Assembly (NCBI RefSeq): GCF_025526975.1
Contig: NW_026515672.1
Span: 434,001 to 498,000 of the forward strand
DNA from: Fimicolochytrium jonesii
Lineage: Eukaryota
Length of the DNA stretch: 64,000 nt
Direction of reading: 5' to 3'
A model generated the notes under the pieces. It worked only from the letters and a program-made list of their open reading frames with translations. It did no database searches and was not told where the DNA came from. Made by a program: the position numbers and the translations under genes. Shown here in pieces: positions 7,581-36,251 of the stretch. Within the stretch, counting starts at the first letter, position 1, and each line of letters opens with the position of its first letter.

Positions 7581-7598
7581 AGCGGCTGGGGGTTGTTG

Positions 7599-7608
7599 AG
7601 CAGATCAA
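7599..7608 (-). promoter_or_regulatory. Putative self-priming primer-binding site
   Basis: Minus-strand TTGATCTGCT lies 2 nt inside the 5' LTR boundary, lacks the tRNA-type TGG, and is complementary to LTR positions 7725-7734. Confidence 0.7.
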
Positions 7609-7610
7609 AC

Positions 7611-9253: not shown

Positions 9254-11098
9254 ATGTCCTACAATACGATCAAAACGGACTCCGCCTTCAACATTGTTCC
9301 TCGAAACCTCCGCCCTATTTATGATAACCCCCCCACACGTCCTACTCGGGAGGCTATTCTTGCCGCACCTCCCTTACCTGAAGCCAGCCTTTCACCCGCC
9401 GAACTGACCACCGTCCACTATCTCGTTGCTGCAAATCTATACAAAGTTCCCACACCAATCAATACCAACGCCCTCCGCCGCCTCTGTCGAGATTTCCCCA
9501 ACCAGCCGGTACTGGATCAGCTGTGCCGCGGCTTCGAGTCGGGCTTCCCCTTGCAGTACCGTCTCAACGAGGAGCGCGCGCATCACACACTCCATAAGAA
9601 CCACCCCACTGCCGATATACACGCACAGGCCTTCAAGGATAATATGGAAGAGGAGGTTGCGCTCGGTCGTCGCACACATATACCCCACAGCGTCCTGCGC
9701 GCCCTACCGTACGCCAACTCGGTCCCAGTCGCCATTGTACCAAAGCCACCTGACCCCAACAAGTGGCGCGTTGTGAATGATGCTTCCTTTCCTCGTGGGA
9801 CGTCCATCAATGACCATATCCACCGCGCGGATCTCGGCGAATGCACCCTCGATCAAATCGGTCCGTTCATCGAAGAAATTATAACCCTCGTCAAGACTCA
9901 CGGACCACATAACGTTCACATTTGGATGACGGACACGACGGCAGCCTATCGCGTGCAACCCTGCCGACCTTCAGATCAAGTTCTCCAAATCATCTTGTAC
10001 GCAGCGCGCTACTTCATCGATCATGCTACCCAGTTCGGCAACCGCGCGTCAGGTTTTCACTGCTGCCGCTTCGGGGATGTCGTATGTTGGATTTTGCACC
10101 GTTTCGGGGTCGGGAACGCACGGCACTTCGTCGATAACTTCTACGGCGCCGTCCCACGATCTCGCATCGACGCTACACGCGCACAAGTCCATCGGATCTT
10201 TCAAATCCTCGGCATTCCCTTCGACCCGAGTAAAGACCTCTGGGGGCCGCAAGTCTTACTGCTTGGCTTCTTCCTGGACATTCCCGCCATGTCCATCTCC
10301 ATCTCGACACGCAAACGCACCACCCTCATGGATTTACTTTCTCACACACTCAGTGCCGATCATGTGCCATCCAAGCTTTTCCTTTGACTTCTCGGCATCC
10401 TCACCTGGGCCTCTTCCATCATCCCGTTTGGGCGCACCTTCCTCGCGCGCGCTTGGAAGTATGCAGCTATCGTCAACGACAAACGCTTGAAATTCGCCCG
10501 CTTGTCATGCGAGCTCCAACAAGACATGGCATGGTTTCAAGACTTATTCGCGCAGTGGTCAGGCACCTCTCTCTTGAGCGAACAAGAGTGGCGCTCCTCG
10601 ACCACCCTCGGCTTCGGCAGCGATAGCGGTGTCGGCGGCTTCGGTGTGTGCACAGACACCGAGTACATCCACGGTACATGGTGCGCACACTGCTACAAGG
10701 AGCTGGATACTGCCTCCGCCTTCGAGCTGGTAGCCATCAGCATCGGCGTTGAAACTTTCGGGCCTCAGCTATCCCGCGCCAAGATTCTGTGGGCAACCGA
10801 TAGCCAGACCAACGTCGCCGCGTGGGTCAATGGTCACAGCACCAACGTCGTTTCTACCCTAGCTATCCGACATATCACACACGCCGCCGTGCCCCTGCAG
10901 TTCGACATACGTCTCGTCCATCTCCCGCGCACATACCTGGATGGATGCGATTCGCTGACGCGTAACAAGATCGCCGAGTTTCAAGCCCGTTTCCCCGACA
11001 AGACCGTCCGCACGCCCCTTTTCCCCTCCTACCTCCAACACACGCCCTCGGGGGTACGTATTCGCGCTCTCCACGCTGGAGAGTGCGATGCGGAATGA
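9254..11098 (+). pseudogene. Ngaro ORF2 reverse transcriptase-RNase H with an internal stop
   Basis: RT motifs KWRVVNDAS, TDTTAAYR, QFGNRAS and FVDN; in-frame TGA at 10385-10387; the same frame continues into RNase H (SDSG, FELVAI, TDSQ, CDSLTR). The start is inferred. Confidence 0.88.
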
Positions 11099-11635
11099 CC
11101 TCAAGAAACCCCTCGTACGCGAAAGACGTCCGCGCGTACGAGCGCCTCGCCCGGGCCCACAATTGGGTAAATTTGGACGGCACCGTGTTCCCGATCTCCG
11201 CAGAGAATTTCGAACGCTACATTCTCTGGCAAATCGATCGCATCTTGGGAACCGGTGGGCAGCGGCCGATCCTTGCGTCCTCTGTCAATAAGGTTCTCTG
11301 CGCCTTGAAAGACTATCATAACTCTCTAGGTTTTCCTTTTCAGCACTTATACAAAAACGAGCTCATTCGTCATCGCCTCTCCATCGCCGCTGCTCAGGCG
11401 CCTATTCCTGCACCGGTTCAACAATCTACACCCGTTACATTGCAACATCTCGCACGGCTCAAGCTTCGGTTGAATATGGATAAACATAACCACCGCCTCC
11501 ACTGGACCATGTTGCTGGTTGGTTTTTGGGGCTTGGCTCGTCGACACGAACTTGTAACGGATGGAACGGCACAAACACATGGGGACATCATACTACTTTC
11601 GGACGTTACCCATATTGCCACCAGGAAAGGAGCGG
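11095..11635 (+). CDS. Ngaro tyrosine recombinase, 5' part, interrupted by the viral element
   Basis: GFWGLARRHEL catalytic-Arg box; rejoins 35851-36251 in frame. Confidence 0.88.
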
Positions 11636-11684
11636 TGGATCAGTGCATAGCATAAACCATTGGTTTATGCTATGCACTGATCCA
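11636..11684. repeat. Terminal perfect palindrome (24-bp arms, 1-nt centre)
   Basis: TGGATCAGTGCATAGCATAAACCA-T-TGGTTTATGCTATGCACTGATCCA. Confidence 0.97.
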
Positions 11685-12454
11685 CTATACAATTGCACTG
11701 TGCATTAACCGTACTGACTCCACTCAACACTGTGCATTAACCGTAACGGCTGCTGAAAGTGTAATGCATTAACCGTACTGGCGGGTGTATGGTGTAATGT
11801 ATTAACAATGTACCCTACACCTTCGGTGTTATGCATTAACCGCACAAGCCTTTCAGCCATTAACCACCCTTGCGCACTTTGGGAAAGGGGGCAAAGTCAA
11901 ATTTCCCCCCTACATGCGTCGAGTCCAACCAACCTTTCTACTACTTCCCCATTCCCTGTTCTATGTAGGGGGGCAAAAAGGCATTTTTCGAACCAACTCT
12001 CACCACCAAAAAGAGACATCCTTTTCTCATTCTTCTTTTCAAAACTCTTGGTACAGATGGTACATATGATACAGGTGTCACTTACACCTGTACCACCCGC
12101 TTCGCACACTCGACATATCTAGTAGAATACTCTTCTTCCATTACTACATATGGAGACCTTTTCACCGAGTCATTACACTTGGTACAGATGGTACAGATGA
12201 TACAGGTACTTTTCATTTCTTTTCTCCCCTTTTCCTTTTCCATTCCATTTTTCTAAAGAAGTTAAAAACTACTGTACCATCTGTACCATCTGTACCAACT
12301 CCATCAAACTCTCTCCTTCTCTAAAAAACAAAAAAAATATCTTACTACATTTGTCGAGACCGTCACAGTAAATGTCACAGTACACAAACTCATACTTCTA
12401 CTGTGACATCCACCTATACGAACATTCTTTCATTTTTCAAAATTACATTACATT
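11636..12454 (+). repeat. Left terminal inverted repeat (819 bp)
   Basis: Reverse complement of 35027-35845; the ORF-track translations inside both copies are identical. Confidence 0.96.
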
Positions 12455-13393: not shown

Positions 13394-13726
13394 ATGCCAA
13401 ACGTTTTTGAAATCAATTCACATATCAAGTGTATAGAGGGAGTTGTTGTTATTCGTTTTGTCGTAGCAGACCTCGATAGTCTGGAACGAATATGTCGGTC
13501 TATGTTAAACAAACCCGGTTATATGGCATATATCAAAGTAAATGACGAAAATCGGGAGATTTTTAAGCAGATCTATACCATTTTTAATAAGAAAAATAAT
13601 CGTCTCCGTAAAGATTTCATTTTCAAGAGCGGGTATCTAGGGATCACAGACGATAAGGGACAACTGAGAATGCTATGTGGAACAGACAAAGACCATCGAG
13701 CCTGTGTACTTGATGTCGAGATTTAG
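13394..13726 (+). CDS. Viral hypothetical protein (110 aa)
   Basis: ATG-initiated ORF convergent with the fibre gene, stops overlapping. Confidence 0.6.
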   Translation: MPNVFEINSHIKCIEGVVVIRFVVADLDSLERICRSMLNKPGYMAYIKVNDENREIFKQIYTIFNKKNNRLRKDFIFKSGYLGITDDKGQLRMLCGTDKDHRACVLDVEI

Positions 13727-16700
13727 TAGCACTGGGTCCAAAAGTTGAGATATGAATTTGATAATGTTATAGAAGTTGGTATGACAATTCGTGCGGAAAG
13801 TTGCGTATTCGTCGAAGAAAACAGCAACGGCACTTGAAAACTGAATGGGTAGCGAGTCTGATAATTGTTTATATCACAGTAGTACGAGACTGCTCTAGAG
13901 GCGACTACGGTAGAAGATTGGTCTAATATTTGAACAGTTATTGTTACCCGAGTGTTATTCGAATTCATATACCCCATAAAGGAAACATGCGCGACCACTC
14001 CCGACATACCTGCTTTCCAATTTATGGGACCGAAGCCCCCCGTGTAGCCATTTGCGTTTGTCAACAACGCATCAACAACACCGTCTTTTATGCAAACTGC
14101 AGATTGAATGATTTGTGAAGCATAGATGTTCGTACTACAAGTCAAATCATTCTTTACCAAGGCTGTTGTATTGCATGTCAAGGAATTCACAGTTGCTGAA
14201 CCACTTGATGAAACGGTTCCCGTAGTTATCGCACCCGAAACATCTATATTGTTTGCAGAAGCACTGACAAGGGTCGCTTTCGGAACAGCCTGATTGAACT
14301 GAATCTGGCGGATAGCGACCCCTCCTGTTGTTGTCTGATTCGCGTACTGCCATGCGATACCCCATACTACATAAGGCGTGGTGTTTGCAAAACTAAACGT
14401 ATTCCCATCAGTGGTCCAAGTAGAACCAGGTATATTCGAAAACGTTGCGATTGTTACCATAGCCGACTCGGTTGTTCCGGCAATCACGGAGAACGTAGTA
14501 GGCATCGCCACGGCGTCCATCAGGTAGGCGGTGAGTTTAAGAGAAGCCATAGCAATGGCCGACGGGAGTCTCAATAACGACCAATGCAAACTCTGTGTTG
14601 TTGAATCGAGTCCTAGGTTTGCTGTCGAAGTGCTCGCGGTTGCCCACCGCAGTCTGGAAGCAATACTTGCATTACTATAACAATCGAAAACATGTCCCGT
14701 ATATCCATCTACACCGTTTCCGTTTGCATACGTGTATTCGGAAGAACCAATAACTGAATACCCGGACCATGATTGACCTGTTGCTGGCGTCTGTGGATAT
14801 GGAACGAGAGTTGTGACAGAATTTAAGGCAGGAGTTTTCAAGTCCCCGGTCACATTAAGATTCGACCCCACATATAGAGATTTCGCTACAGATGCGCCTC
14901 CATTCACTTGAAGAGCGCCCGATGTGTTAGAAGTTGCATCAGAAGTGTTCAAGACCGATACAGTACCACTGTTGTTCAGATTTCCCCCAACATATACGTT
15001 TTTCGCCACAGAGGCGCCTCCAGACACTTGAAGAGCGCCTGATCCAACTCCTGTGCAATCGGTTGTGGTAAAGACCGCGACGTTACCACTGCTGGTGGAG
15101 ACTTTAAACCAAGTAGTGGTCTCGGCTGAATTCCATACGGAAAAATCTCCTACAGTTCTCAAGTCGTCCCATACCCGTACATAAGGGTTGGAACTTTGGT
15201 TCGGATCTATGGAGAGAGGACCTGCTGAACCAGATGCAGAAATTATTGCTTGATTTCCGGTGAAATTCATGTTTCCTGAAACTGTCAAATTGCCGATAGA
15301 ACCGGTAGGAATAGAAACTTTACCTGTTCCGTCCACTGTAAGACCTTGTGGTGCATTCCATAATCCCAAACCCAACGTATTGGTTGCAAGACCCGCTCCA
15401 ACATAGTTGAAATATACCCTGGCCATGTTATTTGTAGCCGCTCCTACTCCAATCTGTAAAGTCGTGAAACTCCCCGCTGCCAAATTAGGTGTTCCGAGAT
15501 GCGAAGATACAACAGGCCCGGTGGAGACGATATTGGAGTATATTGTCCCATTAACAGTCAAGTCTTTACCAAGATTGACATTCCCTGCGATACCCGCTCC
15601 ACCTCTCACCTGAAATGCACCTGATGTTGTCGAAGTAGAATCTATAGTGGAGAGAATCTGTACACTGGGGAGATTACTGTTTATCACAAAGTTAGCGCCA
15701 GACCCCGAATAAAGGAAAAAGTTCCCAGCGTTTGGAGCGTTCGTACCAGTTCCAGCATACCCGAAAGCCCCAACTATCGTTCCTGTGTTGTTAAGGAAAC
15801 CGATAGTAGAAAACCCCGATGCCGAAAGACTCTGGATCTTGAGAACATCAGTTGTAGTGGAGTTTAGTTGCAAAGTATGACTGGAAGTGGCAGAAGACCC
15901 AGCAAATAGAGATTTTGCAATTCCAACGCCACCAGACACTTGCAAAGCACCTGTTGTTGTAGAAGATGAATCAGTTGTCGTATTGATTAGAACATTTCCA
16001 TTTGTCAAGATATCAAGATTTGATACGCCGGGTGAGTTAGCGAATCGTAAGTTCGTCGGTGCATTATTGTACTGTGCCCTAATCACCATATCGCCAAGAG
16101 CCGAGTTTGAGGAAAAATACCCTGCTGCTGAAACGTTGCCCGTTATGCTGCTTCCGAATGTGGGGGATGATACTGAACCGTTGTACCAAAAGATACTTTG
16201 ATTTGACCCGACAAAACTCGCATCACTTCCTACCGTCAATTTCTTGGCGATACCAACACCTCCGGCGACCTGTATAGCGCCAGCATTTGTAGCGTTGGAG
16301 TCGGATACCGAATTGATAGTTAGTGCATTCGTTGTCACATTCACCGATAACGCAAGATTTGCGGCAGTATTGTTGTATAAGCCGAAATTATTAGTTCCAA
16401 GGCCACTAGTTTGACCTATATGCCACAAGGTCCAACCTCCACCGTTTGAGTTTATCAGACCTATAGTAGGGCCGTTTCCGGCGGTAGATTCCTTTATGAT
16501 TCCAAATCCACCGACGTATAATGATTTAGCAATTCCAACGCCGCCGGCAACTTGGAGAGAACCAGCATTTATAGCGTTGGAGTCAAGAGTAGAAGTAACT
16601 ACAGTCGATGCAGCGTTATTTATGTTCAGATTCTGTCCGGTTGTGGTATTGAGGTTCGCCGTTGTTCCGCCCAGGAATACGGTGCCGCCAACCACCACAC

Positions 16701-19700
16701 TTTTCCCTATACCAACTCCGCCAACAACTTGGAGCGAACCTGAATTTGTCGACGTAGAATCAGTCGTTCCGGCAATTTGAACATTGGATAAGTTCGCATT
16801 TCCACCAACATTCAGAGATGATAGAGTTCCAACGCTTGTAATTTGAGGCTGAGCAGGATTTACGCTGAACGAATTTCCACTACGTGTCAATCCTGTTCCA
16901 GCACTAAGAAGCGTATCAACATATGTCTTGTTCGCGAGATGTGTCCCCAATGTCGGTGCTGTTGAGACGACAGCGTTTCCTGACAACGTTAAGTCTCCAG
17001 CAAAGTTCGCATTTCCATTAACGTTCAATGATGATAAAGTTCCAACCGATGTTATCTGAGGTTGAGCCACATTGACAGAGAAATTGTTTCCTGTTCGTGT
17101 TAAGCCGGTTCCTGCACTTAGAAGCGTATCAACATAAGTCTTATTTGTGAGATGTGTATCTGCTGTTGGGGCTGTCGAGATGATGGCGTTCCCTGATATG
17201 GTCACGTCGCCTGTAACACTCAACCCCTGCAGAGTTCCAACTTTGGTGATAACAGCCGACTGGTCCGTGTTGACTGAAATGGCCGTGCCTGACTTTGACA
17301 ATCCTGCGCCAACTGTTGATGTCTGAGCATCGACGTAGGCTTTCGTGCTTACTTGGGCGTCTATATTGGCGAGAGGCAAGATACCTGTCACATCTGTTGT
17401 GAGCGTGATGGTGTTCTTTAACGCCACGGAACCGAGCCCAAGTGCTGTTCTAGATGCTGATGGAGTCGTTGAGGCAAAATTACTTCCATCTCCTACGAGA
17501 AAATTATTAACAGTTGGGGTAGATGAGGAAATAACAGTTAATTTAGGATTAAGAGGTTGAGCATTTCCGGATGTTGTAGAAATCAATCCATCCACATATG
17601 ATTTTGTTGCTGGGTTTGATGCGACGGTGGGAGCAGGAATCGTTACCGCTCCAGAAAATGTAGATGCACCACTAACTGAGAGGGAAGTAAGGGTTCCGAC
17701 CGTTGTGATTTGACTTTGTGAAGGAAGAACTGCCAATGTGACCCCTGTTTTCGAAAGTCCTGTACCGGCGAGAACAGTTTGTGCATCAACATAACTTTTC
17801 AAAGCCACGCTCTGATCAATATTTGCATATGGAAGAATCCCCGTAACGTCAGTCGTTAGCGTAACTGCGTTTTTGCTCGATAATGACCCCAATGTGGGCA
17901 GTCCACTCAAATTCGAGTAAGCAACTGCATTCAAGAGGGCGACTGAGCCTAGTCCTAAAGCCACTCTAGCATTGGCTGGAGTGGTGCTGATAAAATTTGA
18001 ATTATCGCCTACAAGGAAATTGTTGAGCGTGGGAGTAGATGCGGCAAGCGAACTTAATTTGGTGTTTAAAGGCTGATACGTTGTTGCAGCAGCACTCGAT
18101 AAGAGGTAGTTATTCAGAGTGGGACTGCTAATACTTCCTGATGTCAAAGCGCCTGTTACGTTAAGAGATGTGAGTGTCCCAAGAGTAGTGATATTTCCGG
18201 TATTGACCGAAACGGTATTAGATGTATCTCTGGAGAGGATAGGTCCAGCAAATGTTAATTTCTTCTCGTAGATGGTGAGATCTGGAGCACCCGTTATTCT
18301 CGCATATGGAATGGTATCCGTTTTTGCGACTTTACTATCGATAGCAGTTTGAAGAAGACTTGTATTCTGACTTATCAAATTTGAATACGTGGGCTGTATG
18401 ATTGTAGAATCGTATTCACGTAACATGCCCAAGTTGATTGCCTGCTGTGGGACCTCTCCTGCAATACCCAGATATGAACATGTAGGTGGAGTGTCAAAAA
18501 GTAATCTCGTAACATCACAGGATGTATCATCCGTTTTAGGGAAAGTTGCAATGATAACTTGACTTCCGTTCGGATCTGGAACGGGATTATTATGTGAATC
18601 AACCACATTGTTACCATTTGCATCTTTCTGGTTTTTCCTTTCTCGACCACTCGCAGCGATGAAACCACCAAGGATTCCGGCTGCTGCAGCAGGTCCTCCA
18701 AGAAGTCCCCCGACGGCTCCAATGGCGCTAGTGGCAAATGGAGCGGCAGCCGCGGATCCAATGAGGCCAATTGCGCCTCCAACAATTGTAGACAGCGGAC
18801 CAGTAACTGAAACCACTGGATTAGATCCAGATGCTGTTAAAGGATCAGATTCGCCAGATGGTTCCGAATCCTCATTCTTCTCTTCTGGATCATCGTCTTC
18901 CTTCCGGTTCTTGTAGGGCTGGATCGATGAGATATTGAAGCCGGTCTCCTCCGAGCCCACTACTAAAATCCCACTTCCGCCCGTTATGACTAAAGGTTGT
19001 TTTGCGATGTTATACTCCTTATCCGCTCCAGTAACAATGATAGGTAAAGCGCCGGTAATTACCGTGGGTGTTTCCGGTTCTGGTTGATATGTGCAACTGA
19101 TGCTTGACCCCGAAATGGATATGTTGTTTCCAGCCGTGTAGGCGCCGGAAATAGTGTTTCCCGTAACTGACACTCCATTAGATCCAGTATAGGCACCTTT
19201 TATTGAATTGCCTGTTACCGTAACAGTCGAATCACCAGCCTGTAAATCCAACTGCAAATCATTTTCTATGCGTTTAACTCCGTTACTTGCTGTGAGTTTC
19301 TCACCGAACGTGTTGTTACCATCGAATGTGATTGAACCTGAGACAGATGGAGCGAGTTTCACTTGATTCGAATTCTCTAATTTCAATCCGCCATTTCCTG
19401 GTTGGAAAGTTAGTCCTATCGCAATTTTATCATTTACGATGCGAACACCTTTATTGTCAACGATAGCCGACGGATTTACTGAAAGATTTTGTGAAGAGTC
19501 AATTGCTAAACTTGCATCTGTTCTAACATCGATAGTACGCCGACCATTGGACACTCCGGATATGTCTATACCTGACCCTGCTTGGTACAATTGCTCTATG
19601 TACCCGGATGTCACCACTTCATTATTAGCAGGGTTGAAGTTGCTTGTAACGTATACATGCGGAACACGTAATTCATTGAGTGTTTCATTATACGTAAAAC

Positions 19701-20700
19701 TACTGTCTCCATTCAACCCCGATAATGCAGAGTAGAATGGTACTTGCCCCATACCCTTCGAACGGATCGCTAGTTTTCCTCCTGTTTGTCGGAAATCATC
19801 AGATGTCTTCAAACGCACAACGGTTGTATCAACATCCGTTTCTGATCCCAGAAAGTCCGCTAGAGAATCGAAACCGGTCTCTAGAAGGTCATCGAGTGCA
19901 AGACTTCCTGCTTTATCATTGCTTATCGCCCCTCGTCCAACAATAACGGTATCGATGTCCGTCTCCAGTTTCCCTTCATCGCTGAGTTTCAAACCTTTCC
20001 CATAATTTAGGCAGATAGCCTTATCTGCATCTTTCGAAAGCGGAACTTCTACTCGAACAGCCTCGTCAACAATCGCTTCAATGTTCTCTTGAACAACTGA
20101 CAACTGACCGTTTTCAACTGTCAATGTCGAATCAAAGTCCAAGGAGATTCCGCTGATGCCCCGCGTCAACGGGGCTGTCAAAGGCTCTTTGACAACTTCC
20201 AATTTGCCATTATTCACCTCCAATGAATCCTCATCAAAATTCAATTTAAGTCCTTCATCGTCTCTTGACAAAGGTTCTTGCAGATTTTCCAGATCCGTTG
20301 GGGGAAAATTTACAGTCAAACCTTCATCGCCTACTGAAAGGGTCTGATTATGAAACAAAGTCAATCCGTCCTGACTTACTCCAAGAGGCAGGTTTGTTAC
20401 AAGGGAAACAGTTCGGCTTCCATCATCCCTTTGGAGGGGAAATTCCATATTGTCATGGACTACTTCAATTGAAGCCACTCCTTCGGTTTTGTGAATAATC
20501 GCGTCTTCGCTATCGACAAGGTCGTTGATTTTTAATTCGCCGTTTTCATTAGATATCTTTTGAAAGCCTGCTGAATGAAAATTATCAATTGATACGTTCT
20601 CTCCATTAGCACGAAGACTATTGGTCACTAAAGGAGAAACGAGATTTGTTCGTTCAAGCACTCTGATTCCGCTTGAGGTTCGGGAATTTAGACCGCTCAT
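13723..20700 (-). CDS. Giant fibre/spike-like protein (2325 aa)
   Basis: Gly/Ser/Thr/Asn-rich beta-repeat arrays: shaft-like PL...L.L.F repeats, K(S/T/A)YVD...AGTGL repeats and DS.S...GALQV.GG.GIAK repeats. Confidence 0.8.
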   Translation of the reverse strand: MSGLNSRTSSGIRVLERTNLVSPLVTNSLRANGENVSIDNFHSAGFQKISNENGELKINDLVDSEDAIIHKTEGVASIEVVHDNMEFPLQRDDGSRTVSLVTNLPLGVSQDGLTLFHNQTLSVGDEGLTVNFPPTDLENLQEPLSRDDEGLKLNFDEDSLEVNNGKLEVVKEPLTAPLTRGISGISLDFDSTLTVENGQLSVVQENIEAIVDEAVRVEVPLSKDADKAICLNYGKGLKLSDEGKLETDIDTVIVGRGAISNDKAGSLALDDLLETGFDSLADFLGSETDVDTTVVRLKTSDDFRQTGGKLAIRSKGMGQVPFYSALSGLNGDSSFTYNETLNELRVPHVYVTSNFNPANNEVVTSGYIEQLYQAGSGIDISGVSNGRRTIDVRTDASLAIDSSQNLSVNPSAIVDNKGVRIVNDKIAIGLTFQPGNGGLKLENSNQVKLAPSVSGSITFDGNNTFGEKLTASNGVKRIENDLQLDLQAGDSTVTVTGNSIKGAYTGSNGVSVTGNTISGAYTAGNNISISGSSISCTYQPEPETPTVITGALPIIVTGADKEYNIAKQPLVITGGSGILVVGSEETGFNISSIQPYKNRKEDDDPEEKNEDSEPSGESDPLTASGSNPVVSVTGPLSTIVGGAIGLIGSAAAAPFATSAIGAVGGLLGGPAAAAGILGGFIAASGRERKNQKDANGNNVVDSHNNPVPDPNGSQVIIATFPKTDDTSCDVTRLLFDTPPTCSYLGIAGEVPQQAINLGMLREYDSTIIQPTYSNLISQNTSLLQTAIDSKVAKTDTIPYARITGAPDLTIYEKKLTFAGPILSRDTSNTVSVNTGNITTLGTLTSLNVTGALTSGSISSPTLNNYLLSSAAATTYQPLNTKLSSLAASTPTLNNFLVGDNSNFISTTPANARVALGLGSVALLNAVAYSNLSGLPTLGSLSSKNAVTLTTDVTGILPYANIDQSVALKSYVDAQTVLAGTGLSKTGVTLAVLPSQSQITTVGTLTSLSVSGASTFSGAVTIPAPTVASNPATKSYVDGLISTTSGNAQPLNPKLTVISSSTPTVNNFLVGDGSNFASTTPSASRTALGLGSVALKNTITLTTDVTGILPLANIDAQVSTKAYVDAQTSTVGAGLSKSGTAISVNTDQSAVITKVGTLQGLSVTGDVTISGNAIISTAPTADTHLTNKTYVDTLLSAGTGLTRTGNNFSVNVAQPQITSVGTLSSLNVNGNANFAGDLTLSGNAVVSTAPTLGTHLANKTYVDTLLSAGTGLTRSGNSFSVNPAQPQITSVGTLSSLNVGGNANLSNVQIAGTTDSTSTNSGSLQVVGGVGIGKSVVVGGTVFLGGTTANLNTTTGQNLNINNAASTVVTSTLDSNAINAGSLQVAGGVGIAKSLYVGGFGIIKESTAGNGPTIGLINSNGGGWTLWHIGQTSGLGTNNFGLYNNTAANLALSVNVTTNALTINSVSDSNATNAGAIQVAGGVGIAKKLTVGSDASFVGSNQSIFWYNGSVSSPTFGSSITGNVSAAGYFSSNSALGDMVIRAQYNNAPTNLRFANSPGVSNLDILTNGNVLINTTTDSSSTTTGALQVSGGVGIAKSLFAGSSATSSHTLQLNSTTTDVLKIQSLSASGFSTIGFLNNTGTIVGAFGYAGTGTNAPNAGNFFLYSGSGANFVINSNLPSVQILSTIDSTSTTSGAFQVRGGAGIAGNVNLGKDLTVNGTIYSNIVSTGPVVSSHLGTPNLAAGSFTTLQIGVGAATNNMARVYFNYVGAGLATNTLGLGLWNAPQGLTVDGTGKVSIPTGSIGNLTVSGNMNFTGNQAIISASGSAGPLSIDPNQSSNPYVRVWDDLRTVGDFSVWNSAETTTWFKVSTSSGNVAVFTTTDCTGVGSGALQVSGGASVAKNVYVGGNLNNSGTVSVLNTSDATSNTSGALQVNGGASVAKSLYVGSNLNVTGDLKTPALNSVTTLVPYPQTPATGQSWSGYSVIGSSEYTYANGNGVDGYTGHVFDCYSNASIASRLRWATASTSTANLGLDSTTQSLHWSLLRLPSAIAMASLKLTAYLMDAVAMPTTFSVIAGTTESAMVTIATFSNIPGSTWTTDGNTFSFANTTPYVVWGIAWQYANQTTTGGVAIRQIQFNQAVPKATLVSASANNIDVSGAITTGTVSSSGSATVNSLTCNTTALVKNDLTCSTNIYASQIIQSAVCIKDGVVDALLTNANGYTGGFGPINWKAGMSGVVAHVSFMGYMNSNNTRVTITVQILDQSSTVVASRAVSYYCDINNYQTRYPFSFQVPLLFSSTNTQLSARIVIPTSITLSNSYLNFWTQCY

Positions 20701-22783: not shown

Positions 22784-24007
22784 TCATACGATATCGACGG
22801 TTGCCCCAACAAGGATGGTGCGTTGTGCATAGACGGTTGTTTGCAATGAAACACTGGTACTCGGGGCCGGGAGACTGTGATTTGTGATTAGATGTACGTT
22901 TCCAGAGCCTCCGAGTAGGTTCAAAGCGCTACTGGAATCTTCATCTGCGCTTTGCCACGAATAACGCATTACGAACTGTTTGTTGTAAAAGTTATCAATG
23001 TCCAGGTCTTCAGAGGCGTATGATGTGTTGTCGTTCATGGAGAGGTTTCCTATCATAATGGCATCGCTTGCCTCGAAGTCTTCTGTGAGCGGTAATCTAT
23101 ATTGGCCTATCTGGTAACGCCATGACTTTAAGTTGGCTGTATCATAAATCAAACTTTTGTCCCCTGATGTAGTGGCGTATTTATTATCGTCTCTAAACCT
23201 ATGTGTTAATCCGACAATCCGGCCGTTTGTGAGTGGAAGAATAAAGTTGTTCTGAGACGCACCACTACATACATTGGAGAGTTGTTGAACGCCTACTACA
23301 TCAATTTCCAGATACTTCCCTGCCCGAATTCCGGACCACAATGCGGACATATAAGCGGCACTCGGGGTCACAAGTTGTGCTACATAACGAAGATTTGAAA
23401 CTTCAAAGTATACTCCAGAACCTACATTGGTAAAGGCTTGCTGCGGGGTGTTCAAAGTAAATGTCAATTCCACCGATTGATTCGGCAAAATCGCTAGTGG
23501 AATCGGGTTTCCGTTCAAATTTCTCATGGACCCTGCCAACAAATGGTGTTTGAATGTGAAAGTTCCGTTCGGATTTTTGAAAGCATCCGGGTTACCTGCA
23601 CCTTCGTTATATTTTAGATATTTTCGTTTCTCAGCCTCCACAAACTGGAGAGTGTCCGCAACAAAACTTGGCATATCTTCAATTTCGTCAACCACTTTCC
23701 CTCCGAATTTCACGGACATCGTTCGGAAGCAAGCCATTGCACCGATTTGAGAAATCTGCGCATCCGTGACGGGGCTGCCATCAGCGTTTTTCACAGAAAT
23801 TGTTCCCGATAGATACGAACGTTGAGGTCTCAAAAAGGAACTATTGGAATCAACTACGATCTTTATAGCATTTCCAGGTGATTTTGAACTAAACGTCTCC
23901 TTGATTGTGCGATATACAGCAATATTTTCGCTGAGAGCGTCTGAATGCATCGAAAACTGTCTGCTACTATAGATCCAGTTTGAAGGAACAACGGGATTTG
24001 TTGACAT
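22784..24007 (-). CDS. Major capsid protein, double jelly-roll, PLV type (407 aa)
   Basis: N-terminal FLRPQRSYLSGTI and FRTMSVKFGGKVVDEIED patterns resemble PLV MCPs; size and position near the penton and ATPase fit. Confidence 0.82.
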   Translation of the reverse strand: MSTNPVVPSNWIYSSRQFSMHSDALSENIAVYRTIKETFSSKSPGNAIKIVVDSNSSFLRPQRSYLSGTISVKNADGSPVTDAQISQIGAMACFRTMSVKFGGKVVDEIEDMPSFVADTLQFVEAEKRKYLKYNEGAGNPDAFKNPNGTFTFKHHLLAGSMRNLNGNPIPLAILPNQSVELTFTLNTPQQAFTNVGSGVYFEVSNLRYVAQLVTPSAAYMSALWSGIRAGKYLEIDVVGVQQLSNVCSGASQNNFILPLTNGRIVGLTHRFRDDNKYATTSGDKSLIYDTANLKSWRYQIGQYRLPLTEDFEASDAIMIGNLSMNDNTSYASEDLDIDNFYNKQFVMRYSWQSADEDSSSALNLLGGSGNVHLITNHSLPAPSTSVSLQTTVYAQRTILVGATVDIV

Positions 24008-24574: not shown

Positions 24575-25324
24575 TTATACAACGAGATCACTAGGGTCGT
24601 CTAAAATTCCCAGATGAATTGTTATTGGAGCGGATGTTCTCACAACTTGCAACGATGCACTATCGACGATCTGGAAGTCAATTTGATTGAGTGTAAGATC
24701 TTCGGCTCGATGAAAGTTGTCACTCGGGTTGACCCATGTCAAGATATCTCCATACGAATCAGGATTTATCGCCGCTAAACAATTGATGTCCGAGTCAATA
24801 CCAGCCGGATAAAGAATCGCTCCATTTGTCTGTAGAGTCCTTGAAGTTATTAGAATTGGTTGTGATGCGGATAGATTGAGTGTGTTTGGAAATGTTATAC
24901 TTGATCCGTATCCGGTTTCATTGACTTTATCGATCCCAAGTTGCAGAAAAGCGCTTGAACCACGGGATCCTCCAAGAATCTTGAACGTTTTACTTCCAGA
25001 AGTTGAAACAGTTAGTCGTCGAGTCACTCCATCGTAAGAAACACTGTACGGTTGAGACCCCGCTGCAGTCATCGCGCTTCCAAGAGCACCCAAAACGTTT
25101 GTTGAGTCATAGGTCCCTTCGGGCAAAGTTGCTTTTCTTAAAGTCGTAGATCCTGACTCTGCAAAAACAACTGCGTTGTTGAAATCCGATGTCGCACTCC
25201 ATGACTGCAGTAGAGATACCGAAATCAGTCTCCATGCATAGCACGGGACGGTATTTTGAAGACGAAATGTACAATTATTCATATCTGGTAACGTACCAGA
25301 ATTGAGGATAATATCTCGAAACAT
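24575..25324 (-). CDS. Minor capsid (penton) protein candidate (249 aa)
   Basis: Beta-rich, LPEGTYD motif, C-terminal IDFQIVD...ITIHLGI strands; adjacent to the ATPase. Confidence 0.72.
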   Translation of the reverse strand: MFRDIILNSGTLPDMNNCTFRLQNTVPCYAWRLISVSLLQSWSATSDFNNAVVFAESGSTTLRKATLPEGTYDSTNVLGALGSAMTAAGSQPYSVSYDGVTRRLTVSTSGSKTFKILGGSRGSSAFLQLGIDKVNETGYGSSITFPNTLNLSASQPILITSRTLQTNGAILYPAGIDSDINCLAAINPDSYGDILTWVNPSDNFHRAEDLTLNQIDFQIVDSASLQVVRTSAPITIHLGILDDPSDLVV

Positions 25325-25379: not shown

Positions 25380-26114
25380 ATGAGAATTGCTAAACCAAAA
25401 ATACCTTGTGAATATCAGATACACATAAAGGACAAGACGCCCGATGACTATCCGAAGAAATTCTTCACTTTGACTCTAGTCGGGAGTTCAAGAGCAGGGA
25501 AAACTACTTGTATTATCAATCTCATCCAGAATTGTGCAAAAGCGTATGAAAATGTTGTGGTTTTCTCTCCAAGCGCTGACTCGCCGGAATGGACCAGTTT
25601 GAAGAAATGCGATAATGTGTACATGTCCAGCATTGTGTCGAATCACATTCTGAACAACCTTTTCGAGAAGCAGAAAAGTCTTTATAAACAAGACAAATCC
25701 AAAAATCACCTTCTTCTCGTCTTGGACGATTTCGGAATTCTCGCAAAAGAAAATGGCCCCGCAATCGGAAAGGAGCCTAAAGAACCGGAACTGATATCGA
25801 GCGGGATTCGGCAGATGTTAGACTTACTTTACTCGCGCTTTCGACACGCAGGGGGGAGTCTTTTATGCAGCCTGCATGACACGAAACAATTGACTCCGCT
25901 CCAGCGAGTCAACAGCACTCATTGGATATTGTATCGACTTAATCAGAAACAGTATGAGAAGATTGCAGGTGAGATTCGCTGTCATTTGTCAGAATCGGAG
26001 TTTGTAAATTTAGCAGAGAAATATACTGTCAAACCTTATCATGCGCTCTACGTCGATTTGAAAAGCCCGACAAACGAAGGAGTCTTTAAAGAATTGCAAC
26101 CAGAAACGCATTAA
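25380..26114 (+). CDS. A32/FtsK-HerA-type DNA packaging ATPase (244 aa)
   Basis: Walker A GSSRAGKTT, Walker B LLLVLDD, RFRH motif and R.NS motif. Confidence 0.9.
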   Translation: MRIAKPKIPCEYQIHIKDKTPDDYPKKFFTLTLVGSSRAGKTTCIINLIQNCAKAYENVVVFSPSADSPEWTSLKKCDNVYMSSIVSNHILNNLFEKQKSLYKQDKSKNHLLLVLDDFGILAKENGPAIGKEPKEPELISSGIRQMLDLLYSRFRHAGGSLLCSLHDTKQLTPLQRVNSTHWILYRLNQKQYEKIAGEIRCHLSESEFVNLAEKYTVKPYHALYVDLKSPTNEGVFKELQPETH

Positions 26115-26652: not shown

Positions 26653-27891
26653 ATGGACTCCGACAACAAAGGCCCTTCATCTCTCAGATATGACCCCATC
26701 ACTCCGGAGGATCTCCGGAACCTCACCAAGTTTTACTATCAGAATCAAAACTTTCTAGGACGAGACAAATTGTGGTATGCATATAGAAAAGCGTTTCCAA
26801 ATAGCAGGATTTCGCAAAGAACCCTTCTTAACGACTTTCTCAAGAAGCAAGAGATTTGGCAGAGATCGACAAAAGTTATGGGATCCCGAGGCTCGATAAA
26901 ACCGATTTTGGCCAGAAAGGAAGGAAACTACCAGATCGATTGTATAAATCTGACGTCGGTAGCATACGGTGGGTACAAGTATTCGGTCAATGCTTCGGAT
27001 ATTCTCACTAAAAAAGTGTATAGTATGGCGATGAAGACACAAGATCAAGCCACTGTTGTCAAGTTTCTAGAAACAATGAAACGGGATGGCGCTGTATTAG
27101 TAAGTTTCACATCCGATGTAGGTACGGAATTTCAAGGTCAGGTACAAGAGTGGGCCGACTCGAATAACGTGGAGTGGAAGTTCGGACAACCCGGTGTCCC
27201 CCAAGGTCAAGGACAGATTGAATCCGTTAACAAAAATATAAAAAATCTGATCTATTCCTCGATACGTTTCGGAAAACGGGATTGGCCAAATTATCTTCAA
27301 AAACTCATAGATAATTTAAACAACACGAAAACGTATGCGACAGGGAAGGCTTCAAATGAAATCTTACAAGATGAACATGAAGCCATCTTTGATCGCATAC
27401 GGAACAAGAAATTGAAAGGGGTGAAATCAACAGTTTTGAACGAATTTAAGGTGGGAGATATTGTAAGAAAGATAATACCGTTACCAAGTGGTATTAAAAG
27501 ACGCGCAAAGGTGGGGTATTTCTCGTCACAAACCTATAGAATTGGAGGGAAAGTGCAAAGTAATTATGCAGGTTATGTTTCATCGTACAAATTAAACAGA
27601 ATGGATGGAACAAGACTTCCCGGTTTAATATCGGCCAACGATCTTCGCTTGGTTCCATCAGGGACCGTCAACGTACCAAACATGGCTTCCCAGCCAGATC
27701 CAAATGAAAATGACGAATACGAAATCGAATCAATACTTGATAGTAGAGTAGTACGTAGAGGCAACAGAAGGATAAAGCAGTACAAGGTTCTATGGAGTGG
27801 TTATGATGCGTCCCAATCAACTTGGGAAGATGAAGGGAATCTCGAAAATGCACGGGAGGCCATAGCCGAGTATGAAGAGCAAAATGGATAA
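26653..27891 (+). CDS. Retroviral-type (rve) DDE integrase with C-terminal chromodomain
   Basis: YQIDC, TSDVGTEF and QGQIESVN triad; EYEIESILDSR...YKVLWSGY...STWEDEGNL chromodomain. Confidence 0.92.
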   Translation: MDSDNKGPSSLRYDPITPEDLRNLTKFYYQNQNFLGRDKLWYAYRKAFPNSRISQRTLLNDFLKKQEIWQRSTKVMGSRGSIKPILARKEGNYQIDCINLTSVAYGGYKYSVNASDILTKKVYSMAMKTQDQATVVKFLETMKRDGAVLVSFTSDVGTEFQGQVQEWADSNNVEWKFGQPGVPQGQGQIESVNKNIKNLIYSSIRFGKRDWPNYLQKLIDNLNNTKTYATGKASNEILQDEHEAIFDRIRNKKLKGVKSTVLNEFKVGDIVRKIIPLPSGIKRRAKVGYFSSQTYRIGGKVQSNYAGYVSSYKLNRMDGTRLPGLISANDLRLVPSGTVNVPNMASQPDPNENDEYEIESILDSRVVRRGNRRIKQYKVLWSGYDASQSTWEDEGNLENAREAIAEYEEQNG

Positions 27892-27898: not shown

Positions 27899-29059
27899 TC
27901 AAAACTTGTCATCTAGATTTAAATCGTCATTAAGATCGTCGATATCCATCGCATCATCATCATTAGATGAGCCTTCGTTCTTCTCCCTGTGAAGATTATA
28001 ATAAACTTGTCGTGTTGCATAGGAATGACCATGCTTTTTAGCGAACTCTTTTTGAACCCGAGGATCTCCGTTATCCAATTTGATCGAGTCAATCACTACA
28101 ATTTTTCTAAGTTCATTGACTCCGAGTTCTTTTCCGATATGTTGTTTACAAGCGATCTTCATAGCCCTTCCAAAACCTCCGCCTTCATAGGGTTTACTTG
28201 CGTTGCGCGCTTTTTCAAACAATTTACTCTGTCCTTTAGCCTTACGAATATCAACCAGATTATCAATGTGCCTTTTGACAATGTCATCGATAACCGTAAT
28301 AAGAACATCGGTGTCTCCCTTATTCTTATTACATGCTTTTATCAGAAACGTATGGGTTTCCGTATTAAATGTGACGTTATCCGTTTCGGTAATGTCCACA
28401 AACTTCGCTTCGCCAATGTCTGCTCTTCGAATAACATCTGAACCAACGAAACAAGCCGCTGCAATGAGCAACCCATACTTATATGGATCTTTGACGGCCT
28501 TTTCTTTAAGTTGATCCAATTTCTCGTAAAGAGCGTTGATTAAAGGGTCTTTTTCAATGAAGCGCTTCGTTTCATATTCTTTATCCATTACGAGATCGCG
28601 GGCTTGTATCTCTTTACAACGATCGCCGTTGATCTTGAGATAGAAATGTCCCATTTCGTCAATATGCGTAAGTTTGTCCATTGTGCACGCATCTAGGAAT
28701 CGTTTCTTTGCAGTTTCACCATAGAGGCTAGACGAGAGCCAATCGTACAATCCTATTTTTTCCTCGTTTGTCATAATTTTGAACATAGCGGACAACACCT
28801 TTGTACAATTCGCTCCATCGTCTTTAGGGTAATTCTTTTTCAAGATTTTCATGACATCGGTCGGAGATGATAGGACATTCGGATCAAAAATCCCGTATGC
28901 TTCAAGTCCATTACAAGCCGACAGATATACCTTTCGGCTACTCGGAGCCAATCCTATCTTTCCATTCTTTTGTTGGACGGTATCGGCATATCGGTTGATA
29001 AGTTTCTTGGCTATTTCAATATTCATTGCTGTGTCGTTCTTTGGTTGTGCATAAACCAT
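27899..29059 (-). CDS. Tyrosine-recombinase-fold protein (386 aa)
   Basis: IRRADI (Arg), ACNKNK (Lys), NELRK and HGHSYATRQVYY (His...Tyr) in YR order and spacing. Confidence 0.75.
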   Translation of the reverse strand: MVYAQPKNDTAMNIEIAKKLINRYADTVQQKNGKIGLAPSSRKVYLSACNGLEAYGIFDPNVLSSPTDVMKILKKNYPKDDGANCTKVLSAMFKIMTNEEKIGLYDWLSSSLYGETAKKRFLDACTMDKLTHIDEMGHFYLKINGDRCKEIQARDLVMDKEYETKRFIEKDPLINALYEKLDQLKEKAVKDPYKYGLLIAAACFVGSDVIRRADIGEAKFVDITETDNVTFNTETHTFLIKACNKNKGDTDVLITVIDDIVKRHIDNLVDIRKAKGQSKLFEKARNASKPYEGGGFGRAMKIACKQHIGKELGVNELRKIVVIDSIKLDNGDPRVQKEFAKKHGHSYATRQVYYNLHREKNEGSSNDDDAMDIDDLNDDLNLDDKF

Positions 29060-29626: not shown

Positions 29627-31918
29627 ATGTTTGTTTCCCTTCAAAAAATTTCAAACAGTTCCTCACTCTTAACAACTATTGCACACAACCGCTTTCGCCA
29701 TAACTTTCAACCAACGCACGTTCTCAACATGCAAAAACGCCAAAACACCATGGAATTGGCTCCGAAGCGCATCAAAAAAGCCAAACGTACCGTCCAAAGG
29801 GCTGAACCGGGCTCTTTGAATGTGATCAATAACGAAGTGAATTGCAATGAAGACCATATCGACTTCCCAGTTGCGTTGGACTTGGACAATATTTTCGATA
29901 TCGATCCTATGAATTTGAGCATCGAGCCATTGGATTCTCCTTCGACTCAAAACACTCCGACGATCAACAAGCCCGGTCTCGTTGGCTTGCAGATGGATGT
30001 CAATCAAAGTGAAAACGTCATGATTGACAACCAAACCGATGTCAATAACGATCATCCCCAGGAACGTCTGGACGATGTGCCTGACCGAATCCTTCCGGGC
30101 ACTCCGAGTGTCAACCCGCCCGATATCCCTGGATTGCAGATGAAAGTCAATGAAAACGAAGAGATCCAGATTGACAACAACCAAATCGCCGCCAACAATG
30201 ATGACCCCCAGGAACGTCACAAATCTATCGATGGCAGCACCGCGCTTGTTTCTCATGAAGATCTGGCTTCTTCGCAGAAGGCAGGATCGACTCATGATAT
30301 GTTCCAGTGTCAATGCAAACCGTGCACTATCCGTGTTTCGTTTTGGGAATTTGGCCATGCTTTGATAGCACACATAAACCCGAAATCAACAGAGGACAAA
30401 AAGAAAAAGGGTCAATGGGTAACCCCTGCCGCCGAGTTCTTCGAACGGTTTTATGGGCATCTCATTCGATTGAACGACACCAAAGGCTTCGTACGATGGA
30501 ATCCTGCGACGCGCACAAACACCCACTTCGACAAAACAGCCTTCACCGCGTACGTTGGTCAAGTATTATTCGATTGTTTTAATACCACCGACAAGAATCA
30601 AAGCGAAGGCGCAAAGCATGAAATTGGTAAAGGAGCCAAGAAGGTTGTCGACATCATATTCGGACGATTGCGATGGAGGGAGGCTGAGGACGCCAAGCCT
30701 CCTGTGGACAACAGCCATCTGATCGCTTTCAGAAACGGCCTTGTTTACGACCGAAAAGTCGGTGAATATCGGGAGCGCACCGATGAAGACGGCGATATTG
30801 AAGCGTTTGACTATGATCTTGTTGAGTGGGATCCCGAGAAGTATCCCAAACAGCGGTACTTGTGGGATGCCTTTTGCAAAATGTGGCCTGACTCCTCCGA
30901 TCGTTTCTTCGGGCTCACCAATCTCAGTACCATCCTGGGAAGCAGACGCGGTCTTCGTGAACTGCTTATACTTTACGGTCCAAGTTCCAATGGCAAAAGT
31001 TTGGTTGGAAGATTGATGAAACTTATGACATGTTATCGGTTTCTGGGAGCGACCGCCAGCAGCCTACAAAGCAAACCGGGGAACGGAAATAAGCCGTCTG
31101 ACATTCACTGGAAAATGGGGCAAAAATCAACACTTATCACTTGGTTTTCTGAAGGGGATGAGAAGGATTTGTATTCCGGTTCGGCAGTCAAAATGGCTGT
31201 CGGAGGAGATTCTGCGTACCTTAGGAGGGCTTATGGCAAGAATGAAGAACTTACGATAACGGGATTGGTTGTTCTCGCTACAAATCATCTTCCATATTTC
31301 GATTGTGGACTCTACGACAACGATCACAGAGATATTACGGACAAGTTGGTTGTAATACCTTGCAAATCGAAGTTCGTCAGCGCTCATGAACATGAAGATC
31401 CGAGTCAACATGTATATTATAAGGACGGTGAACTCGACCGGCTCATCAACAACGAAGACCGGGACTTAGCGAGTGCCATGATGGCACTCATGGTTTCTTT
31501 GCATCACGATCATCTTCAAACGGAAGAATATCCATTACTGAGCAAGCCCGCGTCAGTGATTTCAGCGACTGCAGATTTAGTCACAAGAGTGCATCCGTAT
31601 CGAACTTTTGTAAAAGAAATGTGCGTTATTGAAGAAGGCGCCAAAATGCGACAATGCATGGCTATGGCGTGCCTCCAAAATTGGACAAAACAGCATCCAG
31701 TATGGCGCAAATGCTCACCGCGGACCCAGGATTTCAAGGCTTTCCTGCTTCACGCGTACCCTGCCGTCTCCTTTGGTACGAACCGACGAATCGACGGGGT
31801 CCAAACAACCGGGTTTTACGGGATCCGGTTGAAGGAAGAGGAGGGGGACAAACATGGAGGACGTGATAAGTTCCTACTGAGCGATATTGACATCCTATCA
31901 AAAGCCATTGAAGAGTAG
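29627..31918 (+). CDS. D5-like superfamily 3 helicase (763 aa)
   Basis: IAFRNGLVYD (D5_N-like), Walker A GPSSNGKS, WFSE, LATNHLP and C-terminal GFYGIRLK. Confidence 0.88.
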   Translation: MFVSLQKISNSSSLLTTIAHNRFRHNFQPTHVLNMQKRQNTMELAPKRIKKAKRTVQRAEPGSLNVINNEVNCNEDHIDFPVALDLDNIFDIDPMNLSIEPLDSPSTQNTPTINKPGLVGLQMDVNQSENVMIDNQTDVNNDHPQERLDDVPDRILPGTPSVNPPDIPGLQMKVNENEEIQIDNNQIAANNDDPQERHKSIDGSTALVSHEDLASSQKAGSTHDMFQCQCKPCTIRVSFWEFGHALIAHINPKSTEDKKKKGQWVTPAAEFFERFYGHLIRLNDTKGFVRWNPATRTNTHFDKTAFTAYVGQVLFDCFNTTDKNQSEGAKHEIGKGAKKVVDIIFGRLRWREAEDAKPPVDNSHLIAFRNGLVYDRKVGEYRERTDEDGDIEAFDYDLVEWDPEKYPKQRYLWDAFCKMWPDSSDRFFGLTNLSTILGSRRGLRELLILYGPSSNGKSLVGRLMKLMTCYRFLGATASSLQSKPGNGNKPSDIHWKMGQKSTLITWFSEGDEKDLYSGSAVKMAVGGDSAYLRRAYGKNEELTITGLVVLATNHLPYFDCGLYDNDHRDITDKLVVIPCKSKFVSAHEHEDPSQHVYYKDGELDRLINNEDRDLASAMMALMVSLHHDHLQTEEYPLLSKPASVISATADLVTRVHPYRTFVKEMCVIEEGAKMRQCMAMACLQNWTKQHPVWRKCSPRTQDFKAFLLHAYPAVSFGTNRRIDGVQTTGFYGIRLKEEEGDKHGGRDKFLLSDIDILSKAIEE

Positions 31919-35845: not shown

Positions 35846-35850
35846 AGCGG

Positions 35851-36251
35851 CCTACGCCTTACGCATCAAACGGCCGAAGATCAGAACACCTCATATGCAA
35901 CATCTCGCTCTTTATCCGCGCAACGATCCTCTTTGCCCAGCTATGGCACTTTCTCGTCTCTTGCACTGGCACGCTGAACGCCACTCGCCCGCATACCAAC
36001 CTTTGTGGACGCTGGAAAATGGGACACACGCCACGTTAGCTTGGTTCGCGGGGATGTGGGCACACTTGGCCGGCATTCAACTGGGAGTTTCGTCGTTGCG
36101 GTCTGGAGGCGCTACGCAGTACGCATTCGAGGGATATCCGTTTGATGCAATACAGAGATACGGAAGGTGGAGCTCAGAAGCGTTTCAGCTTTACATCCGC
36201 TCGCACCCGCAGTTTTTAGTCGAGATCATGCTGCGGTACCATGGAAATTAG
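35851..36251 (+). CDS. Ngaro tyrosine recombinase, 3' part
   Basis: KRPK, LCP, SSLRSGGAT and GRWSSEAFQLYIR. Confidence 0.9.

What the first reader, a model, noticed from the sequence alone, without database searches (positions are those of the whole stretch)
11636..11684. Perfect 49-bp terminal palindromes look like unfolded hairpin telomeres
Seen: each end (also 35797-35845) is a 24-bp/1-nt/24-bp perfect palindrome abutting the TSD and finishing in CA-3'. Inference: if the free genome were linear with covalently closed hairpin ends, an integrase nick after the CA 24 nt beyond the hairpin tip, followed by strand transfer and fill-in, would give exactly this structure. Hairpin ends would also solve end replication without a protein-primed PolB.
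Basis: partly seen in the sequence, partly recalled or inferred. Interest (0 to 1): 0.92.

Follow-up and report, generated by a model that had tools for sequence, protein, structure and literature searches.

The report
Palindromic ends of integrated chytrid virus
A 24-kb virus-like element inserted in a fungal (likely chytrid) genome ends on both sides in a perfect 49-base palindrome that likely forms a hairpin tip in the free virus, a kind of end already noted in one 2026 preprint, and here with extra sequence clues that would let the mechanism be tested.

Summary
Observation confirmed. 11636-11684 and 35797-35845 are perfect 24/1/24 palindromes, the outermost part of 819-bp perfect terminal inverted repeats, flanked by a 5-bp target duplication. 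The 24,210-bp insert splits a host retrotransposon gene, so it is no assembly fold-back. It is a Polinton-like virus without protein-primed PolB, with an rve integrase, a tyrosine recombinase (YR) and two primase/helicases; capsid relatives are in chytrids. Such ends are not new: a 2026 preprint reports them in Halocafeteria virophages and PLVs lacking pPolB, and this scan noted them in other chytrid and protist DNA. Added here: an 11-bp motif beside each palindrome centre recurs four times per TIR and once inside the element, on the YR start codon, so the YR likely binds the tips; and the odd centre base argues against copying both ends from one circle junction and gives a flip/flop tracer. 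Against: the YR folds like XerA/Cre rather than protelomerases, and the preprint's palindromic PLV has no YR. New member of a barely described kind; mechanism untested.

The parts
11631..11635 (+). Target-site duplication, left copy (5 bp)
11636..11684 (.). Left terminal palindrome, 24/1/24, centre T at 11660
11636..12454 (+). Left terminal inverted repeat, 819 bp
11701..11842 (-). Four subterminal copies of the 11-bp motif YGGTTWATGCW (11701, 11733, 11765, 11832; first three 32 bp apart); the same motif lies on both sides of the palindrome centre
12050..12296 (.). Second repeat set in the TIR: 9-mer at 12050, 12181, 12190 (+) and 12279, 12288 (-); possible origin repeats (inference)
13723..20700 (-). 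2325-aa fibre-like protein
   Evidence: Pfam Av_adeno_fibre E 3.9e-10
22784..24007 (-). Likely double jelly-roll major capsid protein, 407 aa
   Evidence: No Pfam hit; Atlas features nearest to viral capsid clusters, score 0.97-0.98 but low recognition value; 13 homologs, the 8 named ones from chytrids; not folded
24575..25324 (-). 249-aa ORF, possible minor capsid protein (by position and size only)
   Evidence: No family hit; inference
25380..26114 (+). A32-like packaging ATPase
   Evidence: Pfam Pox_A32 E 5.4e-07
26653..27891 (+). rve (DDE) integrase with C-terminal chromodomain; D96, D155, E190
27899..29059 (-). Tyrosine recombinase, 386 aa; R212, K245, R318, H345, Y354; XerA/Cre-like fold
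29048..29058 (-). Only interior copy of the 11-bp terminal motif, over the first ATG of the YR gene; 12 nt identical to palindrome centre plus arm (29049-29060)
29627..31918 (+). 763-aa D5/P4-type primase-helicase-like protein
   Evidence: PHROG 6088 E 1.4e-15; TIGR01613 below cut-off
32511..35024 (+). 837-aa primase-helicase (DUF5906; N-terminal primase-polymerase inferred from motifs)
   Evidence: Pfam DUF5906 E 3.7e-19; PHROG 1156 E 9.9e-27
35027..35845 (-). Right terminal inverted repeat, 819 bp, identical to the left one
35797..35845 (.). Right terminal palindrome, 24/1/24, centre A at 35821, ends in CA
35846..35850 (+). Target-site duplication, right copy
11095..11635 (+). 5' part of the interrupted host gene (YR of a likely Ngaro retrotransposon)
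   Evidence: split direct repeats
35853..36251 (+). 3' part of the interrupted host gene

Best explanation
The two palindromes are the true ends of an integrated Polinton-like virus that lacks a protein-primed polymerase, and they are likely the unfolded form of closed hairpin tips of a linear free genome. Shown: the anatomy, the 5-bp duplication, the gene set, and an 11-bp motif shared by the palindrome centres, the subterminal repeats and the YR start. Inferred cycle: (1) each integrated palindrome equals a replicated telomere junction; the YR dimer would bind the two half-sites at its centre, cut with an odd stagger and reseal hairpins, releasing the virus; (2) the primase-helicases would copy it from an internal or TIR origin and the YR would resolve the dimer junctions; (3) the rve integrase would nick after the CA 24 nt past each tip, join that 3' end to host DNA with a 5-bp stagger, and host fill-in would unfold the hairpin. 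I put some hairpin role at about 0.75, closed hairpins with an internal integrase nick at about 0.45, and the YR as the resolvase at about 0.25-0.3.
For: Exact palindromes at both ends, abutting the duplication and ending in CA. No PolB in any of the nine frames of 250 codons or more; largest gap between genes 567 bp. Palindromic ends go with non-pPolB replication genes in Halocafeteria (10.64898/2026.07.28.741278). Nicked-hairpin model reproduces the window for 1 of 4 tip pairs and 1 of 55 nick offsets, though CA occurs at 5 offsets in the first 60 nt, so the site is specific (consistency only). Motif: 13 matches in the window against 0.25 expected, 12 in the TIRs. The consensus can be written from the TIR copies alone; the one interior match lies on the YR start codon, chance about 2e-4 for that gene and 3e-3 for any of 15 genes (noticed after the fact). 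YR catalytic residues kept in 24-26 of 26 aligned sequences. Resolvase and Cre-like activities can be interconverted by mutation in TelA (PMC12270096). Retroviral integrases can cut internally at their own palindromic junction (PMC1905944, abstract).
Against: The YR model matches XerA, Cre and Tn1549 Int (Z 11.7-12.5) well above TelK and TelA (Z 6.4-6.8); no protelomerase is among the listed Foldseek rows. It has neither the Tyr of TelA/ResT nor the His of recombinases at the position three before R318 (PMC3558466 passage; equivalence inferred). Studied resolvases cut a fully symmetric 6-bp core, while this centre is odd. Halocafeteria PLVs carry no YR, yet subtype 4 has palindromes, so a YR is not needed in general. 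rve plus YR also co-occur in Cafeteria virophages, where the YR is read as a giant-virus integrase and the paper does not mention palindromes (PMC8547959). Resolving a provirus this way would leave two hairpin-capped breaks in the host chromosome. Homologs suggest the YR may start at Met13, which moves the motif about 36 nt upstream. Another protein, such as the 93-aa HTH, could be the motif's reader. One copy only.
Confidence: 0.45

Rival explanations
1. Open palindromic ends that self-prime. The free genome is linear and ends in the whole 49-bp palindrome; the 3' CA end folds back and primes strand-displacement synthesis, as in parvoviruses, and the integrase joins an ordinary CA-3' end. This is the Halocafeteria preprint's model.
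For: Gives the same provirus; needs no unusual integrase geometry; a single strand folds as a 23-bp stem with a 3-nt loop at -26 kcal/mol; proposed in 10.64898/2026.07.28.741278; works without a YR, as in that paper's PLV subtype 4.
Against: Needs an enzyme to reopen the closed end that self-priming creates; no HUH or other nuclease family was detected among the ORFs scanned (several ORFs stay unassigned). Does not explain the motif copy on the YR start.
Confidence: 0.3
2. The palindrome is only a duplex binding or recombination site for a dimeric protein (the YR, for integration into a giant virus or for inverting or resolving genomes); it forms no hairpin in the life cycle.
For: YR is Cre/Xer-like; the dyad is built from a motif that also occurs as direct repeats and at the YR start; YRs of virophages are read as giant-virus integrases.
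Against: The symmetry is perfect for 24 bp, twice the 11-bp motif, and stops exactly at the integration junction; protein sites seldom need that (inference). Palindromic ends also occur without a YR. It leaves end replication without pPolB unexplained.
Confidence: 0.17
3. The free genome is a monomer circle with one palindromic TIR-TIR junction; the integrase (or a resolvase, as in phage N15 or Ectocarpus viruses) opens that junction and both proviral ends are copied from it.
For: Retroviral integrases cut palindromic circle junctions (PMC1905944); circular PLV contigs are reported (PMC7805220); circle-to-hairpin conversion is proposed for phaeoviruses (PMC13236599).
Against: Copying one junction to both ends makes the centre base the same on the + strand; observed T and A (strand logic). 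It survives only if the TIRs were homogenised later, by replication, gene conversion or assembly.
Confidence: 0.05
4. Artefact: fold-back chimeric reads, or accidental snap-back repair at the ends.
For: Raw reads could not be examined; the preprint names accidental annealing as an alternative.
Against: Same length at both ends, unique host DNA beyond each, a 5-bp duplication and a restored host frame; like ends in unrelated hosts.
Confidence: 0.03

Closest known systems
Terminal palindromes of endogenous virophages (subtypes 1, 2, 5, 6) and PLV subtype 4 of Halocafeteria seosinensis (bioRxiv 10.64898/2026.07.28.741278; passages and parts 2-3 of 5 read)
   Same: Palindrome at the outer end of long TIRs next to the duplication (52 nt in subtype 5), about 24 kb, TIRs about 0.5-0.8 kb, rve integrase, non-pPolB replication genes, hairpin role proposed and untested.
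   Different: Fungal host; odd-length palindrome with a marker base; a PLV with both rve and YR (their PLVs have no YR); motif link to the YR gene. The preprint has no nick, resolvase or flip step.
Chytrid Polinton-like viruses (Spizellomyces punctatus group; PMC7805220 and 10.64898/2026.06.19.733378, passages read)
   Same: Capsid/ATPase module, TIRs, 5-7 bp duplications, rve or YR, no pPolB; named homologs of the capsid and YR proteins are from chytrids.
   Different: Neither main text contains 'palindrom' or 'hairpin'. Placement in a named PLV group was not tested.
Hairpin-telomere replicons with protelomerase (N15 TelN, TelK, TelA, ResT; cyanobacterial PAST transposons; phaeovirus telRL)
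   Same: Perfect palindrome of similar size (56 bp in N15, at least 28-bp arms for TelT) beside a tyrosine-nucleophile enzyme; PAST joins a DDE transposase to hairpin telomeres.
   Different: Enzyme here is Cre/Xer-like; the core is odd, not a symmetric 6 bp; the unfolded palindromes are themselves the integration ends.
Parvovirus (AAV) and poxvirus hairpin ends with flip/flop forms (from established knowledge; vaccinia paper seen in a search listing only)
   Same: Terminal palindrome with an asymmetric centre that would alternate between two forms.
   Different: No HUH Rep or RuvC-like resolvase was detected here; these viruses do not integrate through an rve integrase.

Membership tests
Polinton-like virus (pPolB-less) | Double jelly-roll major capsid protein | tested here: inconclusive
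   No Pfam or PDB sequence hit; Atlas features nearest to capsid clusters at 0.97-0.98 with low recognition; not folded
Polinton-like virus (pPolB-less) | A32-like packaging ATPase | tested here: met
   Pox_A32 29.8 bits, cut-off 22.8
Polinton-like virus (pPolB-less) | 15-40 kb, TIRs, target duplication, integrase | tested here: met
   24,210 bp, 819-bp TIRs, 5-bp duplication, rve and YR
Polinton/Maverick | Protein-primed PolB | tested here: not met
   All nine frames of 250 codons or more scanned, no PolB family; no gap over 567 bp; the 487-aa ORF is unassigned
Halocafeteria-type palindromic ends | Palindrome in the TIR adjacent to the duplication, with rve and non-pPolB replication genes | tested here: met
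Tyrosine recombinase superfamily | Catalytic fold with R-K-(H)-R-H/W-Y and a core-binding domain | tested here: met
   Model pLDDT 85; XerA Z 12.5, Cre Z 11.7 with rmsd 5.1 over 272 residues; first His position is variable
Protelomerase / telomere resolvase | Fold closer to TelK/TelA than to recombinases | tested here: not met
   TelK Z 6.8 (rmsd 4.9, 176 aligned), TelA Z 6.4-6.8, against 11.7-12.5 for XerA/Cre/Tn1549
Protelomerase / telomere resolvase | Tyr in place of the recombinase His (TelA, ResT) | tested here: not met
   Position 315 is N, D, K, T, S, G, Q, L or R in 25 sequences, gap in 1, never Y or H; feature from PMC3558466; position equivalence inferred
Protelomerase / telomere resolvase | Converts a duplex palindrome into two hairpins | not testable with these tools
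   Needs purified enzyme
Hairpin-ended linear replicon | Covalently closed ends in the free genome; flip/flop tips | not testable with these tools
   No genome, runs or related loci

The most novel reading that the evidence does not exclude
A two-enzyme cycle not described for any virus in the searches made here: a Cre-fold tyrosine recombinase has independently become a telomere resolvase that lifts the provirus out as a hairpin-ended linear genome, and a retroviral-type integrase puts it back by nicking inside the closed hairpin, so that integration rebuilds the excision signal.
Probability: 0.25. Interest if true: 0.88.

Novelty: new member of a known kind. Interest (0 to 1): 0.55.

Why it matters
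How Polinton-like viruses without a protein-primed polymerase copy their ends and leave the host chromosome is open. Palindromic ends now appear in unrelated hosts, so they are likely a general solution. This copy is a good test case: it is recent and looks intact, its odd centre base marks which strand each tip came from, and a sequence motif points to a named enzyme. If the YR resolves the palindrome, it is a new origin of hairpin-telomere formation, and an integrase that accepts closed hairpins would be a new reaction.

Tried and rejected
No whole genome is held and no sequencing run was listed, so other copies, centre-base flips and raw reads are untested. Palindrome patterns: 0 matches in viral contigs and metagenome contigs. 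Protein-led locus scans gave no confirmed relative: integrase, primase-helicase, capsid alignments, YR subgroup. The YR had no hit by word search, PDB sequence search (only weak, Tn1549 Int E 0.52) or Pfam (Phage_integrase in 2 of 26 members); the single-sequence fold failed (pLDDT 36). The Atlas did not answer for the YR. A motif-like site at the start of the 128-aa ORF (12870, one mismatch) is within chance (20 one-mismatch hits seen, 6 expected, 13 of them the exact set); not used. A monomer-circle junction as the source of both ends was set aside on the centre base. Host hairpin opening with palindromic nucleotides, as in V(D)J joining, was set aside by reasoning: equal length at both ends, CA ends and a clean duplication. 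I recall that Tetrahymena Tlr elements have a conserved terminal sequence of about 47 bp; the two primary papers are not held and the search listing gave nothing on it, so this is unchecked. No complex prediction was run, as the question is protein-DNA.

Full report
1. Observation. The two 49-mers are as described: 24-nt arms, one central base, T on the left and A on the right of the + strand. They form the outer ends of 819-bp perfect inverted repeats. The element begins TG, ends CA and is flanked by a 5-bp duplication, the only length of 2-9 that matches. No other perfect palindrome in the window has an arm over 12 bp. The window has no N.

2. The insertion is real. The insert is 43% GC against 55% and 52% in the flanks. 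It interrupts an ORF that starts at 11095; without the element and one duplication copy the frame stays open for 313 codons, and the right flank carries the C-terminal half of a tyrosine-recombinase-like protein (my motif reading, with no family hit). Split direct repeats at 1576-1736/36817-36977 and 36738-36816/37018-37096 fit a Ngaro retrotransposon (split-repeat layout in PMC8547959, passage, and recalled). Identical TIRs suggest a recent event. A host acetolactate synthase scores 526-568 bits against its top seven PDB sequences, which include the mitochondrial entries, and 316-324 against chloroplast ones, so the host is likely a fungus.

3. What the element is. It encodes a fibre-like protein, an A32 ATPase, an rve integrase with chromodomain and two primase/helicase proteins. 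The 407-aa ORF is the likely capsid protein (weak); 8 of its 13 homologs are named, all from chytrid genera. None of the nine frames of 250 codons or more matches a PolB family and no gap could hold one. It is a Polinton-like virus without pPolB. Chytrid PLVs are known (PMC7805220; 10.64898/2026.06.19.733378; passages only).

4. The second recombinase. The 386-aa ORF had 29 relatives at E up to 0.001; 25 were aligned, four short fragments left out. Of nine looked up, four are named from chytrids. R212 and K245 are kept in 26 of 26 rows, R318 in 25, H345 and Y354 in 24. The model (pLDDT 85) matches XerA, Cre and Tn1549 integrase best; TelK and TelA score about half as high. It is a tyrosine recombinase and fails two tests for the protelomerase family. 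That lowers membership, not necessarily function: TelA can be mutated into a Cre-like recombinase (PMC12270096, introduction and passages).

5. A motif ties the tips to the YR gene. The 11 bases on each side of the palindrome centre resemble a repeat found four times further inside each TIR. Their joint consensus, YGGTTWATGCW, has 13 matches in the window against 0.25 expected; 12 are in the TIRs, by construction. The thirteenth was not needed to write the consensus and overlaps the first ATG of the YR gene, where 12 bases equal the palindrome centre plus arm. Chance of any interior hit is about 4-7%; of one within 100 bp of this start about 2e-4, of any of 15 starts about 3e-3. I noticed this after the fact. 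The simplest reading is that the YR binds the tips and regulates its own gene; another binding protein is possible.

6. Mechanism. This is consistency, not proof; open palindromic ends give the same result. The centre base does discriminate against one class of model: if both ends were copied from a single circle junction, the + strand centres would be equal, and they are T and A. Resolution of dimer junctions would shuffle tips among all four pairs over generations, which makes the centre base a tracer that even-length palindromes lack. My preferred cycle is YR resolution for release and replication, with rve nicking for integration. The YR step is the weakest: fold and core differ from known resolvases, and the Halocafeteria PLV with palindromes has no YR. 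Integrase cutting at an internal palindromic site has a retroviral precedent (PMC1905944, abstract), but I saw none for a closed hairpin.

7. Prior knowledge. The preprint 10.64898/2026.07.28.741278 (passages and parts 2-3 of 5; supplements closed) reports palindromes next to the duplication in four virophage subtypes and one PLV subtype, linked to non-pPolB genes, and proposes hairpin priming. It does not use the words nick, resolvase or flip. Ten literature searches listed no other description of such ends in PLVs and no resolvase model for them; the library lacks most subscription papers. Other passages read without relevant content: PMC11296320 (which does raise YR action on poxvirus-like ends), 10.1101/2022.05.25.493380 (14), PMC11071308, 10.64898/2026.10.13.758929 (23), PMC5182062. 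Analogues: phaeovirus telRL (PMC13236599, passages) and PAST transposons (10.1101/2024.11.13.623437, abstract and two sections). This scan's own notes list 50- and 44-base palindromic ends in other chytrid DNA and similar ends in a protist; I could not check them.

8. Limits. One copy, no reads, no related loci. The centre bases rest on the assembly alone.

9. Verdict. Real and well formed; a new member of a kind of viral end described once, with two added handles for testing. Interest 0.55; the resolvase-plus-integrase cycle has probability about 0.25 and would merit 0.88.

Noticed in passing
window 1576-37096: Likely Ngaro retrotransposon (split direct repeats 1576-1736/36817-36977 and 36738-36816/37018-37096) hosting both the virus and a Ty3/gypsy element; the reverse of the Cafeteria case, where Ngaro inserts into virophages.
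   Followed up: partly
window 2261-7908 and a little beyond: Ty3/gypsy chromovirus with gag (6633-7559) and an intact 1222-aa pol (2806-6474); at least 300 bp of its LTRs are identical, so it is recent.
   Followed up: no
window 26610-26640 and 29360-29387: Internal palindromes, 12/7/12 just upstream of the integrase start and 12/4/12 in the divergent region between YR and helicase; possible operators or transcript-end hairpins.
   Followed up: no
window 12050-12296 and 35185-35431: Inverted clusters of a 9-mer around an AT-rich spacer inside each TIR; looks like an origin or helicase-loading site.
   Followed up: no
window 26653-27891: The viral integrase carries a chromodomain, as does the neighbouring gypsy integrase; it may steer insertion into silenced repeats, fitting the nested site. 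Only one relative was found (49% identity).
   Followed up: partly
window 29627-35024: Two different primase/helicase genes side by side with an HTH gene between; may reflect replacement of the replication module.
   Followed up: no
P0033: A 1046-aa Spizellomyces protein named DNA cytosine methyltransferase clusters with the YR homolog P0006, suggesting a fusion or merged gene model.
   Followed up: no
window 36373-36564: Three 64-bp tandem copies between the host YR stop and the terminal repeats of the retrotransposon.
   Followed up: no
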